DNA from: Candidatus Latescibacterota bacterium | GTDB lineage: Bacteria; Latescibacterota; UBA2968; UBA8231 | Direction of reading: 5' to 3' | Length of the DNA: 63,973 nucleotides | Assembly (NCBI GenBank): GCA_965205655.1 | Contig: CBDBIJ010000137.1 | Location: 1-63,973, forward strand | Shown here: piece after piece, positions 30,001 through 36,000 of the stretch | Numbering within the stretch: the stretch's first letter is position 1 | Layout: the number at the start of each line of letters is the position of its first letter | Made by a program: the position numbers

Positions 30001-33000
30001 TTGACGGCTTTGTCCATGCCGCTGTTGGGAATCGCCTCCGGCTACTGGTCTCTCGTCTTGATTGTCACGGCCTGTGGTCTCGGCGTCGCCGCATTCCATC
30101 CGCAGGTCGCCTCCCTCGTCGGTGACTTGAGCGGCGCTCGCCGTTCCTTCGGCATTTCCATCTTCATCTTCGGGGGGACGCTCGGACTGGGTACCACCCC
30201 GTTCTGGATTCCCGCCTTCGCCGAGGAGATCGGACTGGGGCTGCTGCCGCTGATGACCGCGCCGGGGCTCGTCCTCTGCGCGGTGCTGCTGCGCTTCGTG
30301 CCTCTGAACAACCCCCACCACTCGAGCCGCATTGGCATGACGTTCAGGGCAAGTTTCGACGGGAGAGGATGGGCCCTTGCCTACCTCGCTTTCGTCGTAA
30401 CCCTGCGGTCGATCAGCACGTTCGGCATCGGCTACTTCCTCACCCTACTCTACAGGGACAGGGGCTTTGGACTCGTAGAGGGAGCCGTTCCCCTCGGCAT
30501 CTACAATATCTCCGGCGTTGTGGGCGGCCTCATTCTCGGCTACTGTGCCGACCGGGTGAACCCCAAACCACTTGTCTGGGGATCCATTCTACTCTCCGGT
30601 CCGGCCCTGTTCGGTTTTCTTCACACGGACGGTGTGACCAGCTACGTCCTGCTCGCGCTCGGCGGCGCCCTCCTCATCGGGTCCAATCCGCTCACCGTCG
30701 CCATGGCTCAGGAGATCGCCCCGAAGAACGCCGCCCTCGCTTCCGCCCTTCCTCTCGGGTTCAGTTGGGGAATCGCCGGACTCATCCTCTTGCCCATCGG
30801 GTATGTCGCGGACCGCATAGGACTCCCCAACACCCTGACCTATCTCGCCATTCTGCCGCTGCTGACCGGCCTGCTCGCTCTGCGATTGCCTTCCCCCACG
30901 CCACGCCGTCCTGAGCCGCTGACATAAAAAAAACCCCCTGCCGTAGGCCGTTGCCGGACTACAGGCGGGGGGCTGCCCTAAGGAGGATTAGGAGGTTTTG
31001 CAAGCTCGGTACGGATCAGCGTGTTCCGCGCCGAGCCTATCTATAGTTTTCGGCACGCCGGAGCCGAGGTTGAGATAATTGTGCTCCGAGTTCATAACTT
31101 ACTGATTTTTCATGTATTTACGCAACAGAGATTCATAGATCTTGACGAAGTCCTCGCGGCCGTTGCTGCGGTTGTAGAAGTAGCAGAACGGATTCGGATT
31201 CAGCTCGAGAATCGAGAGCCCATCCTGCCCGCCGATCAGATCGACGGCGTAGAAGCCCAGATCGATGACTCGAGCGATCCTGCACGTCAGCTCCGCCATG
31301 GCCTCGAGCAGGTCGGGATCCTCGACTCTGACCGCCCGCCCCGAGGACTCGTGCAGGGGATTCGGATCCTCGACGGTTCCCTCGACCCGGTCGCTCTGTT
31401 TTTCGTAGGCCAGCAACAGGTCGGCCTGACTGGCCACCGCTCTGAACTCCCGACCGGCCACGAAGGTCTGTGCGAGCACGGTGTTGTCGACGAATCCGCT
31501 GTTCTCGAACAGGGACTGGAGTCGGGACTTCACCGCACTTCCGCTGCGCTCGACGTAGACCCCCTGCGACACGGAGCTGCGGTACTTCTTGATGAGAATG
31601 GGATACTCCATGTGACGATCGACATCTTCGACGATCTCGTCGACCGTGCGATGGCGTTTGTAGCGGTTGAAGCGATCGTCGGCATAGGGATTGAAAACCT
31701 GCATCGTGAACGGCACCGGCAGTCCCTCGCGGGCGAACAGTTCGTACTGGTAGCCCTTGTCCTCGGCCAGCCGCGCCGCCACGTAATCGTTGAACGGATG
31801 CTTGTTGCGCAGGAAATAGACGTGACTGCGGCCGGACCTCACCTTGAGAACATTGTCGTTCTCGGACACCCGTTCGCATTCCACCTGGGCCCGATCGCAC
31901 GCTTTCTCGACGCATGCCAGTGACTCGAGGGCGACATCCTCGCTGATCCCCTCCCGCTGGAAGGGCAACCCGAAATACTCTCGCGCCCTGGCCACCAGCG
32001 CCAGTGAGCCGGTGACGCATATATGGTCCGTTGACGTGGCGCACTCTGATGTGGCGGACTCTGATGTGGCGCACTCTAGTGTAGCGACGAAAGCCTGCTC
32101 ACACGAGGCGAACGTCGTCGTCGCGATGCCGCGGGGAGCGACCTGCTCCAGATGATGCGGTTCCATCGCCTTCGGATGATCGGAGCTGGTGAGTGCAAGA
32201 TTTCGTGCCAGCGGGCGCAGAGCCTCGAGGATACCGGCCGCGTCGTGCCCGCCGTTCACGCCGATGATGAATGTCCACCTGTTCGCGATCGCTCGCAGAT
32301 CCTCGGCCAGGGCGTGCGCCGCCGCCGGATTGTGGGCGCCGTCCAGAATGACGCATGGCTCGCGGCTCGCGTGCTCGAAGCGTCCCGGCCACTGGCAGCT
32401 CTCGACGATATCCCGGGCTACATCGATCGCCAGCCGGTCCCCGAAAAGATGCTGCGCCGTCCTCAGCGCGAGCTGGGCGTTCTCGACAAACGTGCAGGCG
32501 ACGTTTGTGCCGCGCGGCCGCGGCGACCATTGGCTTTGGGTTGGATCGGCGACGTGAAGCGGTATGCCCAGCGATTCACAGCGACTGCGCACATACGCCA
32601 GCACTTCGGCCGGCTGCCCGGACGTTGTGAAAAGCGGCCTGCCGCGGCGCCCGATGGCCAGCTTTTCCTCGGCGATGCCGATCAGGTCTTCGCCGAGCGC
32701 TTCGGTGTGATCGAGACCGATCGATGTCAGCACGGCCAGCTCCGAATCCCAGGCGTTCGTGGCGTCGTAGGTGCCACCGAGGCCAACCTCGAAGACGGCG
32801 CACTCCACCTCTGCCTCGGCGAACAGAAGCGCGGCCAGGGCGGTGAGGGCTTCGAATTTCGAGAATGGACCGTACCCCTCGTTTTCGAAGCCGCGGCTGC
32901 AGTCGAACAGGTGCGTGATCCCCTGCGCCCAGTGGTCCTTGCTGAGACTGTGCCCTCCCACCTGAATGCGCTCCCGCAGCGAGTGCAGGTGGGGCGATGT

Positions 33001-36000
33001 GTAGAGGCCGGTGCAGAATCCGGCTCCCAGCGCCAACCCCGCGAGCAGACTGCTCACCGTTCCCTTGCCGTTCGTGCCGCCGACTACAACCGACCGAAAC
33101 CGGCGCTGCGGATCGCCGAGTCTTCGCAGCAGGGCCTGCATCCGGGGCAGGTAGTCGTCGAGTGGGCCCGCATGCGGTCGGCCGCTTTCCCAGTCGGGAA
33201 GCGTGTCGAGGAATTGCCTGGCTCGCATGTAGTCCATGGTTTGACGAACCCCTCAACCGCCGCGGGTGTGCATCTCCCGATGCGGGTCCAGCTTCAACTC
33301 TTCCACCTGGTAGAGCGCGCCGCGACCTGGGGCGGAGAGACGATCCTCGGCGCCGCGATCGACACGGCTCTCCCACAAGCGTCGAATAGTCGCCGTGAGC
33401 TCCCCGTTCGAGCTCCCGTTGCGAATCATTTCACGCAGGTTGATCCCCTCCTGGGCGTAGAGACACTGGTACCACCAGCCGTCCGCCGTGAGGCGGCTGC
33501 GGTCGCAGGCTCCGCAGAAGGGCTCTGTCGTGGAGGCGATCACCCCGAAGCGGGTGCCGTCCTCGAGGCGAAAGCTCTCTGCCGGCGCCGAACCTCTCCC
33601 TCCGACCGGCTCGACAGGGCCCAGGTTCGCCACGATACGTTCGAGAATTTCGCCCTTCGAAAGGACGCGCTCCGGCGACCACAGAGTCGCCCCTCCCACA
33701 TCCATGTACTCGATGAAACGGATCTCCGCCCCCGTCCTCTTGCCGAAGGCGATCAGATCTGCGAGCTCGTCGTCGTTGAAATTCCTCATGACGACGGTGT
33801 TGATCTTGAGCTCGCGAAAACCCGCCTCGGCAGCTACCTCAATTCCCTCGATGACCCGATCGAGATGGGCGCGACGGGTCAGCATCTCGAAACGGGCCGA
33901 CTTCAGCGAATCGAGACTCACCGTCACCCGATGAAGACCGGCCCGCCGCAGCGACTCCGCGTAGCGCGACAGCTGCGTCCCGTTCGTCGTCATGGCCAGA
34001 TCTTCGATCCTCTCGATCGTCGCCAGCCGGCCCACGAGCTCGACGACGCCGGTGCGGAGCAGCGGCTCACCGCCGGTGAGGCGGACCTTCCTGACGCCGA
34101 CCATGGTGAAGGCTTCGACGACCGTGCCGATCTCCCCCAGGGTCAGTATGTCCGTTTTCGGCAGCCACACGTACTCCTCTTCGGGCATGCAGTAGCCGCA
34201 GCGCAGATCGCAGCGATCGATGACGGAGATTCGCAGACTCTGCAGCGGCCTGTCGTAGACATCGGTGGCGACGGAACTGGCGCCGTCGCTAGGACTGCCC
34301 ATTTTCAACCTCCTGAGGCGTTCCAGACCCACCACACAGAGATGAACATGAAGACGAATGTCAGCGCCCCGTGAATGCTGATGTCGGCGGCGAGATTGTG
34401 TGCCAGTCGAGCGATGACGACGAACACCAGATCGAAGAACAACTCGAGCCAGGTCACCGCCCGGTGAAGCTCGAACTCTTCGTCAGCTCTGAGCGCCGGC
34501 TTTTGCCACCAGGATCGTTTCATGGGGGCCTAAGATAACATCTCGAGGCGGTCAATGCGGCGGCGCGTGGCTGGCGTCGCTCCGGGTCCCGCCCGATCTT
34601 CTCCGCACGACTGCAAAGCCGCTTTTCTCAACCGTGGACGTAAGAGTAGGGTAAACGACACATGAGCCAGGCCGAGACGAATCAGATCGGCAAGCTGCTC
34701 GAAGGCCAGGACTACGTCGCCGGCGACGACATCGCCATGTCACTCCATCTGGCGCGCGCCCTCGACAAACCGCTTCTGGTGGAGGGGCCGGCGGGGGTTG
34801 GCAAGACGGAAATCGCCAAGGTCATGGCCCGTGCCCTCGATACGGAGCTCATCCGCCTCCAGTGCTACGAGGGGCTCGACATGTCCACCTCCCTCTACGA
34901 GTGGAACTATCAGCGTCAGCTCCTCCAGATCAGGATGGAGGAGTCGAAGCCATCGAAGCCGCTCTCATCGGCCAGTCTCTCGACGAGGCATCCGTTGCCA
35001 CTGTTTGCGAAAAAGCAGCCGACGGTGTGGAGCTGCTCGGCGACGCCTTTGCGGGAGAGGACTATCGGCGCCATCTGGCGAAGGTATTCGCCAGGAGGGC
35101 AATCCTGGCTGCTGCCGAAGCGGCGTAGAGACGTGACATTGTCGCCATGCGTTGACAGGTCAGTTCACGCGATTGTATCAAAAGACCCGAAATTTCGATC
35201 CTTTCATCGTGCGACGTTGATAGAGAATCTTCCGAAAAAACAGTATGTTATGTTATATGTATGGCAGCCCGATCTGAATAGATAGGCGATGGCACATGCA
35301 TTGCTCAACTAACTTGTGAACGTTGATCTCAGCGCCGTTGACGATCGACCTCAGGTCGATGACGCTCGACGTCACAGGGAGGTGGGCCATGAACAGCTTC
35401 CAGCTCGGCGACACCGTGAGATTTACCAGCAGCAGAGATCTGGTTGTTGGACGAGTGGAGGAGATTCGGGAGGGGTTCGACGGGAATAACCTGCTCGTCG
35501 TCAGGCAAGGACTTCCGATGTTCGGACCGCGCTTCGTCGTCCTTTCCAGCTACGCCGAAAAGCTGCAACCCGCCTAAAGACACGCCGCTTCGCCACGCTC
35601 TTACACCGCTGTTGCCTAGCCGCGTCCGACTGCGGCAGCTCCACATGTAGTAGCTCCGTCTTGTCCCCTCTAGTAGCTCCGTCTTGTCCCCTCCGAGATA
35701 ATTTCGTACCGTCCTCCTGCGTGCAAGTAGGCCGAGCCATCGCGCTCGGACAACTCAATCCCCGGAAGTCGGGTTTCCGGCTTCGAGAAGGAGGAAGCAA
35801 CATGGCACTCATTCCCCTCATCAGTTCCGACATCGCCGGTCCCCTCGGCGCCATCCATCTGCCGCGGCTGTGGTCGAAGTGTCTCCTGAGCGCCACCGGC
35901 CAGCTCGAAGACGGCTACGATGAGTGCGGCCAGGGTTTCGACCAGATGACCCTCGATGGCCTGAAGGTCGATCGAGACGCCGCCGTCGATTTCATAAAGT

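What a model noticed while it worked through the whole genome (the two positions that open the first line are those of the whole stretch)
31099..33237. The only FolC of the genome is fused to a RimK-like ATP-grasp ligase domain
Gene g03764 (712 aa) is a complete FolC (dihydrofolate synthase/folylpolyglutamate synthase, residues 30-421) followed in one frame by a ~280-residue ATP-grasp domain whose nearest characterised relatives are RimK-type alpha-L-glutamate ligases; no other FolC is called in the genome. I read it as a two-headed enzyme that first builds the gamma-glutamyl tail of folate and then extends or caps it with alpha-linked glutamate (as CofF and MptN do for F420 and methanopterin). 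New would be a gene for folylpoly-alpha-glutamate formation, an activity seen in E. coli extracts in the 1980s for which, to my recollection, no gene was ever assigned.
Evidence so far: NCBIfam: TIGR01499 folC 268 bits over residues 30-421 (model 1-399/400); TIGR00768 rimK_fam E 3.9e-10 over 481-683; Pfam RimK 531-690 (pfam.tsv). PDB sequence search with residues 430-712: best three are RimK (5zct, 4iwx; E 0.025-0.029) and a probable alpha-L-glutamate ligase (7qyr). Search of 5.8 bn proteins with the ATP-grasp part only: 254 clusters at E<=1e-3, the 120 listed almost all 675-784 aa and carrying Mur-ligase plus ATP-grasp Pfams, named only 'FolC', 'cyanophycin synthetase' or 'hypothetical', named ones from Latescibacterota and one Gemmatimonadetes. 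g03764 is the only gene with a FolC hit. AlphaFold2 model of the last 303 residues on an alignment of 34: pLDDT 87.3, pTM 0.84; F [...]
(Added by a program. Inside this text positions count along the whole contig: contig position 1 is position 1 of the stretch shown here. "Call 12" and the like, gene names such as g00115 and contig names such as C1 are that model's own, and its searches are not shown. The text may have been shortened before it was handed on; [...] marks where a part breaks off. The agent that wrote the report below was given it as the finding of a first reader that could run no searches.)

Follow-up and report, generated by a model that had tools for sequence, protein, structure and literature searches.

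The report
FolC fused to ATP-grasp ligase
In one class of the uncultured phylum Latescibacterota, the enzyme that puts glutamate on folate is permanently fused to a second, intact amino-acid ligase of unknown substrate, which hints at a folate tail chemistry nobody has described.

Summary
The ORF at 31099..33237(-) encodes 712 aa: a complete FolC (TIGR01499, 268 bits against a cut-off of 162.65), a conserved 12-residue linker, and a 283-aa ATP-grasp ligase.

- **Only FolC here:** it is the only FolC found in this 84%-complete genome. The genome also has folK, folA and a DHPS fragment.
- **Clade-wide fusion:** 110 of 113 sampled genomes in three families carry it, against 0 of 38 in the phylum's other families.
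- **Under constraint:** the ATP-grasp half is as conserved as the FolC half and keeps all ATP/Mg residues.
- **Nearest folds:** ArgX/LysX and RimK, which put an amino acid on a glutamyl carboxylate.

New caveats:
- The domain fails the RimK, CofF, MptN and CphA models.
- Distant stand-alone relatives occur in genomes where no FolC was found.
- Two genomes keep a second, canonical FolC.
- The FolC half is a diverged lineage.
- There is no E. coli orthologue beyond RimK (E 0.03).

The scan noted this fusion earlier on other DNA (e1-6763934). I found no paper describing it.

The parts
31099..33237 (-). Whole gene, 712 codons plus stop: FolC-linker-ATP-grasp fusion (P0001).
   Evidence: The start is supported because M1, D2 and Y3 are nearly invariant or invariant in 50 homologues.
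31975..33150 (-). FolC (dihydrofolate synthase / folylpolyglutamate synthase) half, residues 30-421.
   Evidence: TIGR01499 at 268-270 bits, over its cut-off. Mtb FolC 2vor E 6.8e-46 and E. coli FolC 1w78 E 1.5e-38. Foldseek TM (target) 0.80-0.83 to FolC structures.
33058..33078 (-). P-loop GTNGKGT, residues 54-60.
   Evidence: G54, N56, G57 and K58 are invariant in 50 fused homologues. They are shared with unfused FolCs and aligned to the same motif in 2vor and 1w78.
32662..32664 (-). K192. It aligns with the lysine of the EK(A)GI motif of FolC; its identity as the carbamylated lysine is recalled, not looked up.
   Evidence: Invariant. Aligned to the K of E. coli and Mtb FolC.
32329..32343 (-). 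DGAHN motif, residues 299-303.
   Evidence: D299, A301 and H302 are invariant. Aligned.
32002..32007 (-). G410-S411. It corresponds to the Ser of the proposed glutamate gamma-carboxylate pocket of Mtb FPGS.
   Evidence: Invariant and aligned to the 'tgs' of 2vor. The pocket is described in PMC10861534 (passages read).
32032..32077 (-). In-frame 15-bp tandem repeat of 3.1 copies, encoding ECATS/ESATS/ECATS in a surface loop of the FolC C-terminal domain.
   Evidence: The loop has pLDDT below 50 at residues 397-400.
31939..31974 (-). Short conserved linker, residues 422-433.
   Evidence: Mean pairwise identity 62% in 50 homologues. L424, E427 and G430 are nearly invariant and E433 is invariant.
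31102..31938 (-). ATP-grasp ligase domain, residues 434-712. It has a compact N-terminal subdomain of one helix and three strands, followed by the central and C-terminal ATP-grasp parts.
   Evidence: Model pLDDT 95.3, pTM 0.92. VIA-align: ArgX 3vpb Z 21.8, LysX/ArgX 5k2m Z 21.3, RimK 4iwx Z 19.7. Foldseek puts RimK 5zct first, E 7e-14.
31588..31590 (-). K550, the ATP-binding lysine of the 'ILIKK' strand.
   Evidence: Invariant in 86 fused and stand-alone relatives, as K121 in domain numbering. Aligned to the RimK 'vvK'.
31198..31242 (-). D666, E678 and N680, the Mg/ATP triad of ATP-grasp enzymes.
   Evidence: Invariant in 86 relatives, as D237, E249 and N251. Aligned to the RimK 'vD...mEvN'.
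33253..34335 (-). moaA (GTP 3',8-cyclase, radical SAM). It lies 15 bp upstream on the same strand and is probably co-transcribed.
   Evidence: Pfam Radical_SAM plus Mob_synth_C. A MoaA homologue lies directly upstream in 43 of 79 related loci.

Best explanation
The gene encodes a two-headed ligase.

The N-terminal half is the cell's working FolC. It adds L-glutamate to dihydropteroate and extends the gamma-glutamyl tail of tetrahydrofolate.

The C-terminal half is an active ATP-grasp carboxylate-amine ligase of the RimK/LysX/ArgX structural group. I infer that it takes the glutamyl tail made by its own N-terminal half, activates one of its free carboxylates (most simply the alpha-carboxylate of the last glutamate) as an acyl phosphate, and adds an amino acid, probably L-glutamate. 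That would cap or branch the tail and fix its length, as CofF does for F420 and MptN for methanopterin.

**Shown:**
- the fusion
- its conservation across the clade
- intact catalytic residues in both halves
- its role as the sole FolC

**Inferred:**
- the acceptor
- the residue added
- the linkage
For: 1. **The FolC half is complete.** TIGR01499 scores 268 bits against a cut-off of 162.65. The P-loop, SPHL loop, K192, DGAHN and G410-S411 are all kept and shared with unfused FolCs. The fold matches FolC structures at TM 0.80-0.83. The protein's cluster in the ESM Atlas (the protein-atlas search library) carries Pfam FOL3_C in 96% of 113 members.
2. **It must do the FolC job.** It is the only FolC found in the genome, which also has folK (155 bits), DHFR (157 bits) and a DHPS fragment at a contig end.
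3. **The fusion is fixed in a clade.** Sampled genomes with the ATP-grasp part: 110 of 113 in families f1-f3 (G000 included), always in frames of about 700 aa. Of the 3 without it, 2 also lack any FolC match and 1 has only a FolC fragment at a contig end. The count is 0 of 38 in the other 11 families of the phylum.
4. **The ATP-grasp half is under constraint.** Mean pairwise identity is 59%, against 56% for FolC and 62% for the linker. K494, K550, E597, R599, D666, E678 and N680 are invariant even across 86 fused and stand-alone relatives.
5. **The nearest folds ligate an amino acid to a glutamyl carboxylate.** These are ArgX, LysX/ArgX and RimK, at Z 21.8, 21.3 and 19.7.
6. **There is precedent for the chemistry.**
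   - Cofactor tails are capped with alpha-glutamate in some species, and E. coli folate is among the examples (PMC9679996 and PMC1971073, passages read).
   - MyfA and MyfB are ATP-grasp glutamate ligases for methylofuran (PMC8141765, passages read).
7. **The full-length model hints at a defined domain arrangement.** It has pLDDT 87.4 and pTM 0.78, which is suggestive only.
Against: - No result names the acceptor. The link to folate rests on the fusion alone.
- The domain is below every curated cut-off: rimK_fam 39.6 against 143.4 bits, LysX 18.9 against 275.6, MptN 12.7 against 350. CofF gives no hit at E<=1.
- The only stand-alone close relative with known context (Gracilibacteria MAG, L020) is not next to folC. 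It overlaps a superoxide dismutase gene, although that genome does hold a FolC elsewhere.
- Two more distant stand-alone relatives (122 and 88 bits) lie in genomes where no FolC was found.
- No folate gene is a conserved neighbour. The recurrent neighbours are moaA (43 of 79 loci), a Cys/Met PLP enzyme (32 of 79) and a MobA-like gene (25 of 79).
- Two genomes of one genus keep a canonical FolC beside the fused one, so the fused protein need not be just FolC plus a decoration.
- The genome is only 84% complete.
Confidence: 0.45

Rival explanations
1. The ATP-grasp half works on an acceptor unrelated to folate, such as the C-terminal glutamate of a protein or peptide (as RimK, LysX and ArgX do) or another small acid. 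It is fused to FolC only for co-expression or regulation.
For: - The nearest folds, ArgX, LysX and RimK, all act on protein C-termini.
- Distant stand-alone relatives occur in genomes where no FolC was found.
- The Gracilibacteria relative is coupled to a superoxide dismutase gene, not to folC.
- No folate gene is a conserved neighbour.
Against: - The covalent fusion, with a short and conserved linker, is kept in 110 of 113 sampled genomes. That is hard to explain without a functional link.
- Ribosomal protein S6 of this genome ends in ...EEEASEG, not in glutamate.
- No canonical RimK is present, and no small carrier gene was seen beside the gene.
Confidence: 0.2
2. The two halves act as an iterative two-site synthetase, like a cyanophycin synthetase with its domains in the reverse order. 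Primed on folate or on a free peptide, they alternate to build a long mixed or branched amino-acid chain.
For: - Mur-ligase plus ATP-grasp is the cyanophycin synthetase architecture.
- Weak matches to the CphA models fall on both halves.
- CphA1 7wac/7wae and CphA2 7ta5 are among the fold matches.
- The Atlas lists other Mur-ligase plus ATP-grasp proteins of about 700-900 aa as feature neighbours, at scores 0.86-0.87, which are leads only.
- Methylofuran carries up to 24 mixed-linkage glutamates (PMC8141765).
Against: - TIGR02068 scores 40.6 bits against a cut-off of 850.
- The Mur half is a far better FolC (268 bits).
- The domain order is reversed and the CphA N-domain is missing.
- The fold is closer to ArgX and RimK (Z about 20-22) than to CphA2 (Z 15.2).
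Confidence: 0.1
3. The ATP-grasp half makes a dipeptide or modified amino acid that the FolC half then attaches. This would mirror D-Ala-D-Ala ligase feeding MurF, and the known MurC-Ddl fusions.
For: - D-Ala-D-Ala ligases are the next-best fold group, at Z 17-18.
- NCBIfam holds a bifunctional MurC/Ddl model, which shows the precedent (family NF011171).
- The FolC half is a diverged lineage separated by a long branch from unfused FolCs, with 270 bits against 330-411 for its unfused neighbours.
Against: - The FolC half keeps the residues of the glutamate pocket (G410, S411) and every conserved FolC position.
- The organism has an ordinary DHFR, and so presumably ordinary dihydrofolate.
Confidence: 0.08
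4. The ATP-grasp half no longer catalyses ligation and serves as a nucleotide-sensing or scaffolding module for FolC.
For: None is direct. Its substrate is unknown and its sequence scores to characterised families are low.
Against: All ATP/Mg-binding residues are invariant across 86 relatives. The domain is as conserved as FolC.
Confidence: 0.04

Closest known systems
FolC, bifunctional dihydrofolate synthase / folylpolyglutamate synthase (E. coli 1W78, M. tuberculosis 2VOR/2VOS)
   Same: The N-terminal 421 residues pass the family model, keep the catalytic motifs and share the fold. It is the only FolC of the genome.
   Different: - It carries a 283-aa ATP-grasp ligase at the C-terminus.
- The FolC half scores 250-300 bits where unfused FolCs of the same phylum score 330-411, and it forms its own clade on a long branch.
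- It is shorter by about 20 residues between residues 230 and 250.
RimK (ribosomal protein S6 : L-glutamate ligase, poly-alpha-glutamate synthetase; 4IWX, 5ZCT)
   Same: Best PDB match by sequence (E 0.025) and first by Foldseek. It has the same ATP/Mg residues and adds an amino acid to a glutamate carboxylate.
   Different: - It scores 39.6 bits against a family cut-off of 143.4, and the sequence match starts only at model position 75.
- It has an insertion of about 13 residues after residue 516.
- It is not stand-alone.
- S6 here does not end in glutamate.
LysX / ArgX (amino-group carrier protein LysW : amino acid ligases; 3VPB, 5K2M)
   Same: Top structural matches at Z 21.8 and 21.3, with 244 and 241 residues aligned and about the same length.
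   Different: LysX_arch scores 18.9 bits against 275.6. I did not look for a LysW carrier. Those enzymes use the gamma-carboxylate of a protein C-terminus.
CofF (gamma-F420-2 : alpha-L-glutamate ligase) and MptN (tetrahydromethanopterin : alpha-L-glutamate ligase)
   Same: They are RimK-type ATP-grasp enzymes that cap a cofactor's acidic tail with alpha-glutamate. This is the function proposed here.
   Different: MptN scores 12.7 bits against 350, and CofF gives no hit for this protein. Both are stand-alone archaeal enzymes acting on other cofactors.
Cyanophycin synthetase CphA1/CphA2
   Same: It is also one chain with an ATP-grasp and a Mur-ligase-type domain that act on the same growing molecule.
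   Different: The domain order is reversed, the N-domain is absent, and the score is 40.6 bits against 850. The Mur half here is a true FolC.
Folylpoly-alpha-glutamate synthetase activity of E. coli extracts (Ferone et al. 1986)
   Same: The activity is the chemistry proposed for the second half. I saw the 1986 papers only as citations, plus one sentence in PMC1971073.
   Different: No sequence is attached to that activity in what I read. E. coli has no fusion and no closer relative than RimK.

Membership tests
FolC (TIGR01499, DHFS/FPGS) | Whole-protein score over the curated cut-off with full model coverage | tested here: met
   268.4 bits against 162.65, model positions 1-399 of 400; 270.3 bits in the six-frame search.
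FolC (TIGR01499, DHFS/FPGS) | Catalytic motifs: P-loop GTNGKG, SPHL loop, EK lysine, DGAHN, C-terminal GS | tested here: met
   All are invariant in 50 fused homologues and shared with 8 unfused FolCs. They are aligned to 2vor and 1w78.
FolC (TIGR01499, DHFS/FPGS) | FolC fold | tested here: met
   Foldseek matches to 2vor, 2vos and 1w78 at E 1e-27 to 1e-26, TM (target) 0.80-0.82.
FolC (TIGR01499, DHFS/FPGS) | Dihydrofolate synthase and folylpolyglutamate synthase activity | not testable with these tools
   Inferred from it being the only FolC in a genome that has folK, folA and a DHPS fragment.
RimK family alpha-L-glutamate ligase (TIGR00768) | Score over the curated cut-off | tested here: not met
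   39.6 bits against 143.4, and only model positions 75-255 are matched.
RimK family alpha-L-glutamate ligase (TIGR00768) | ATP-grasp fold with ATP/Mg residues | tested here: met
   Z 19.7 to 4iwx. K550, D666, E678 and N680 are invariant.
RimK family alpha-L-glutamate ligase (TIGR00768) | L-glutamate as the residue added, in alpha linkage | not testable with these tools
   There is no substrate information.
CofF / MptN (cofactor : alpha-L-glutamate ligases) | Score over the equivalog cut-offs (TIGR04443 300 bits; NF040720 350 bits) | tested here: not met
   MptN scores 12.7 bits. CofF is not listed at E<=1.
LysX / ArgX | Score over the TIGR02144 cut-off | tested here: not met
   18.9 bits against 275.6, although these are the top structural matches at Z 21-22.
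LysX / ArgX | A LysW-type carrier protein as partner | not tested
   I ran no search for LysW.
Cyanophycin synthetase (TIGR02068) | Score over the cut-off, and the N-domain / ATP-grasp / Mur-ligase order | tested here: not met
   40.6 bits against 850. Here the Mur half comes first and the ATP-grasp second. The CphA models place the ATP-grasp at positions 163-320 and the Mur part at 715-783.

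The most novel reading that the evidence does not exclude
This clade makes a folate form that is not in the textbooks. Its glutamate tail would be capped, branched or extended through alpha linkages (or by another amino acid) by the fused ATP-grasp half. If so, this would be the first gene shown to encode folate alpha-glutamylation. It would also give a handle for testing whether RimK-type ligases explain the E. coli activity of 1986, which has no gene assigned in the texts I read.
Probability: 0.35. Interest if true: 0.8.

Novelty: new variant of a known kind. Interest (0 to 1): 0.62.

Why it matters
Folate tails are taught as purely gamma-linked. Alpha-linked residues were reported in E. 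coli in 1986 and never tied to a gene in anything I could read.

A clade in which the essential FolC is fused to an intact second ligase is a natural experiment that points at the enzyme. It can be expressed and assayed directly. A positive result would add a step to folate biosynthesis and extend the CofF/MptN tail-capping logic from archaeal cofactors to folate. It would also define a new ATP-grasp family that includes rare stand-alone members in candidate-phyla-radiation (CPR) bacteria.

A negative result would still need to explain why an unrelated ligase stays fused to FolC across a whole class.

Tried and rejected
- **Domain contact:** Complex prediction of the FolC half against the ATP-grasp half scored 0.00 against a mark of 0.32. 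The verdict was 'no answer'. It says nothing either way about domain contact.
- **Stand-alone relatives as a guide to function:**
  - The representative search gave about 140 stand-alone proteins of about 270-290 aa at 21-37% identity. None has an informative name, and all fall under the rimK_fam cut-off.
  - The genome-contig scan gave only one stand-alone locus, L020 in a Gracilibacteria MAG.
  - The metagenome scan gave 51 loci, all at 27-57% identity to the stand-alone query. I took them to be the fused form but did not check them.
  - Searches of 201 genomes of that phylum and 151 of its class found 3 and 1 full-length relatives. That is too few for a co-occurrence test with FolC.
- **Apparent natural loss in G099:** the 490-aa frame ends because contig C24 ends at base 16739.
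- **Word-index search with the domain alone:** it returned only fragments of fused proteins.
- **Literature:**
  - 'folylpoly-alpha-glutamate' gave 0 papers.
  - 'Latescibacter' with 'folylpolyglutamate' gave 0 papers.
  - 'folylpolyglutamate synthase' with 'ATP-grasp' and 'fusion' gave only two pseudomurein papers.
  - 'RimK', 'folate' and 'glutamate ligase' gave no title linking RimK to folate; I saw the listing only.
  - Mathieu et al. 2005 on the E. coli FolC structure is not held, so residue roles in the pterin pocket were not checked.
- **pABA-glutamate ligase idea:** I considered that the second half might ligate pABA to glutamate. I set it aside as unsupported by any result.

Full report
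**1. The observation**

The minus-strand ORF 31099..33237 is open for 712 codons. The first residues M-D-Y are nearly invariant or invariant in 50 homologues, so the start is right.

- Residues 30-421 match the NCBIfam FolC model end to end: 268.4 bits against a cut-off of 162.65, model positions 1-399 of 400.
- Residues 481-683 match the RimK-family model weakly: 39.6 bits against a cut-off of 143.4, and only from model position 75.
- Pfam gives Mur_ligase_C and RimK (23 bits, cut-off 21).

The window is the whole of contig C137 of a 4.0-Mb, 150-contig, 84%-complete assembly. A six-frame search of that assembly finds no other FolC above cut-off.

**2. The FolC half is a working FolC**

- It aligns with M. 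tuberculosis FolC (E 6.8e-46) and E. coli FolC (E 1.5e-38).
- It keeps the P-loop GTNGKGT, the SPHL loop, the EK lysine, DGAHN and the C-terminal G410-S411.
- The S411 position corresponds to the serine that a 2024 study places in the glutamate gamma-carboxylate pocket of Mtb FPGS (PMC10861534, passages read).
- 55 positions conserved in unfused FolCs of the same phylum are also conserved in the fused ones. Only 9 are switched.
- A full-length AlphaFold2 model (pLDDT 87.4, pTM 0.78) matches FolC structures at TM 0.80-0.83.
- The genome also encodes FolK (155 bits), DHFR (157 bits) and the C-terminal piece of a DHPS cut by a contig end. Folate is therefore made de novo, and this protein has to supply the FolC step.

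**3. The ATP-grasp half is intact and constrained**

- Modelled alone on 86 sequences, it gives pLDDT 95.3 and pTM 0.92.
- An exhaustive structural comparison puts ArgX (3vpb, Z 21.8, 244 residues aligned, rmsd 2.9) and LysX/ArgX (5k2m, Z 21.3) first. RimK follows (4iwx, Z 19.7), then D-Ala-D-Ala ligases (Z 17-18), with glutathione synthetase at 15.5 and CphA2 at 15.2.
- Foldseek puts RimK first.
- The residues that bind ATP and Mg in this superfamily (K494, K550, E597, R599, D666, E678, N680) are invariant across fused and stand-alone relatives.
- Within 50 fused proteins, mean pairwise identity is 59% for this half, 56% for FolC and 62% for the 12-residue linker.
- The N-terminal subdomain is compact: one helix and three strands in about 50 residues. 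Sequence profiles do not see it.
- There is an insertion of about 13 residues after residue 516 relative to RimK.

**4. Distribution**

I sampled 151 genomes of the phylum.

- The ATP-grasp part was found in 110. By family, without G000: f1 60 of 63, f2 30 of 30, f3 19 of 19. Every match lay in a frame of about 700 aa.
- It was found in 0 of 38 genomes of the other 11 families.
- Of the three f1 genomes without it, two also lack any FolC match and one has only a FolC fragment at a contig end.
- The one 'short' case, G099, is a contig end.
- Record titles of related loci are mostly Candidatus Latescibacterota. A minority carry Gemmatimonadota-type labels, with single Planctomycetota and Handelsmanbacteria labels. 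These are MAG labels and I did not count them.
- In the fused clade the fused gene is normally the only FolC.
- The exceptions are G106 and G132, of one genus. They carry a second, canonical FolC (365 bits). In G132 it sits downstream of accD on the same 1.5-Mb contig as the fused gene.
- Fused FolC halves score 250-300 bits, where unfused FolCs of the phylum score 330-411.
- On a tree they form their own clade (support 89/95). A long branch separates them from the unfused ones, which include family f4 of the same class and the two second copies (99/97). The tree was rooted at the midpoint for drawing only.
- The FolC half is thus a diverged lineage. Either it sped up after the fusion, or it was once a paralogue that later replaced the canonical gene.

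**5. Relatives of the second half outside the fusion**

- A full scan of 1.84 billion representatives found 328 hits at E<=1e-3. Past the fused proteins and their fragments, these are stand-alone proteins of about 270-290 aa.
- Nine of them have 33-37% identity over the full length. Many more have 21-30%.
- They share family motifs: RNK(N/H)PFN, DK, LLAYEK, NPLH, and E-x-N-x-N-P-x-C-x-(F/Y)-Y-N.
- All fall under the RimK-family cut-off and match it only from about position 75. None has an informative name.
- The single close one with context lies in a 1-Mb Gracilibacteria MAG. It overlaps the end of an Fe/Mn superoxide dismutase gene by 11 bp. That genome has a FolC about 530 kb away.
- Two more distant relatives (122 and 88 bits) are in genomes where no FolC was found.
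- The family as a whole is therefore not tied to folate. That weakens, but does not remove, the inference for the fused branch.

**6. Neighbours**

- In this window moaA ends 15 bp upstream on the same strand, and an MFS transporter converges downstream.
- Across 79 related loci, all with both halves:
  - a MoaA homologue lies directly upstream on the same strand in 43;
  - a Cys/Met-family PLP enzyme lies downstream on the same strand in 32 (26 within 170 bp);
  - a MobA-like gene lies within 8 kb in 25.
- AAA and VWA (CoxE-like) genes precede moaA in one group of loci.
- No folate gene and no small carrier gene recurs.
- These loci are kin, so the counts describe inherited synteny, not independent events.

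**7. Reading**

The best-supported mechanism has two steps. The FolC half makes dihydrofolate and the gamma-glutamyl tail. The ATP-grasp half then activates a free carboxylate of that tail and adds an amino acid, most simply an alpha-linked L-glutamate that caps the chain.

The chemistry fits the structural neighbours. It also fits the known tail-capping ligases CofF and MptN (named from established knowledge and from the family models), and the methylofuran ligases MyfA and MyfB (PMC8141765). Mammalian RimK-like enzymes that make N-acetylaspartylglutamate are a further small-molecule precedent, recalled and not looked up.

I put this reading at 0.45. The rivals are:
- an unrelated acceptor (0.2);
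- a cyanophycin-synthetase-like iterative polymerase (0.1);
- a dipeptide supplier for FolC (0.08);
- a non-catalytic module (0.04).

**8. What is known**

The 1986 reports of alpha-linked glutamates in E. coli folates, and of an enzyme preparation that makes them, exist. They are still cited. In the passages I read no gene is named, and four full-text searches found no paper on a FolC-ATP-grasp fusion or on RimK acting on folate. I did not consult any supplementary files.

This scan had already noted the same fusion on another genome (e1-6763934). My results agree with that note and were obtained independently.

**9. Verdict**

This is a real, clade-wide, uncharacterised fusion of the essential FolC with an intact ligase from a new branch of the RimK/LysX group. 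It is a new variant of known kinds. It is worth an enzyme assay. The link to the E. coli activity is a lead only.

Noticed in passing
window 32032-32077: An in-frame 15-bp tandem repeat of 3.1 copies at 90% match. It encodes ECATS/ESATS/ECATS in a low-confidence surface loop of the FolC C-terminal domain (residues about 388-402).
   Followed up: partly
window 33253-34335 (-) and related loci L021-L099: moaA lies 15 bp upstream on the same strand. A MoaA homologue is directly upstream of the fused gene in 43 of 79 related loci, and a MobA-like gene lies within 8 kb in 25 of 79. In one group of loci, AAA and VWA (CoxE-like) genes precede moaA. The gene therefore sits in a molybdenum-cofactor-flavoured neighbourhood with no obvious link to folate.
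   Followed up: partly
related loci, e.g. L091 8851-10011: A Cys/Met-metabolism PLP enzyme (PF01053) follows the fused gene on the same strand in 32 of 79 related loci, and within 170 bp in 26. In this window it is absent, and an MFS transporter converges instead.
   Followed up: partly
L180 (G132:C5:1-5000) and L181 (G106:C361): Two genomes of one genus keep a second, canonical FolC (365 bits). In G132 it lies downstream of accD, as in E. coli, on the same 1.5-Mb contig as the fused gene.
   Followed up: partly
L020 7274-7996 and 7986-8780: In a Gracilibacteria MAG, the closest stand-alone relative of the ATP-grasp half overlaps the end of an Fe/Mn superoxide dismutase gene by 11 bp. Thioredoxin-like, transaldolase and transketolase genes lie upstream.
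   Followed up: no
G000 contig C86 10134-10563 (outside the window): A second DHFR-like gene appears as two adjacent pieces in different frames. The search reports one TGA inside the upstream piece (10363-10563), so this is possibly a broken copy or an assembly error. The intact DHFR is on contig C72.
   Followed up: no
window 26548-28165: A queC gene is followed by a creatininase-family gene. The listed ORFs overlap by about 110 bp, so the second gene's true start is probably further downstream.
   Followed up: no
G000 contig C127 (L111 1213-2586): A 457-aa ATP-grasp protein gives a weak rimK_fam hit at 31.9 bits and lies about 1.7 kb upstream of folK. It is probably a biotin carboxylase, but I did not check.
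   Followed up: no
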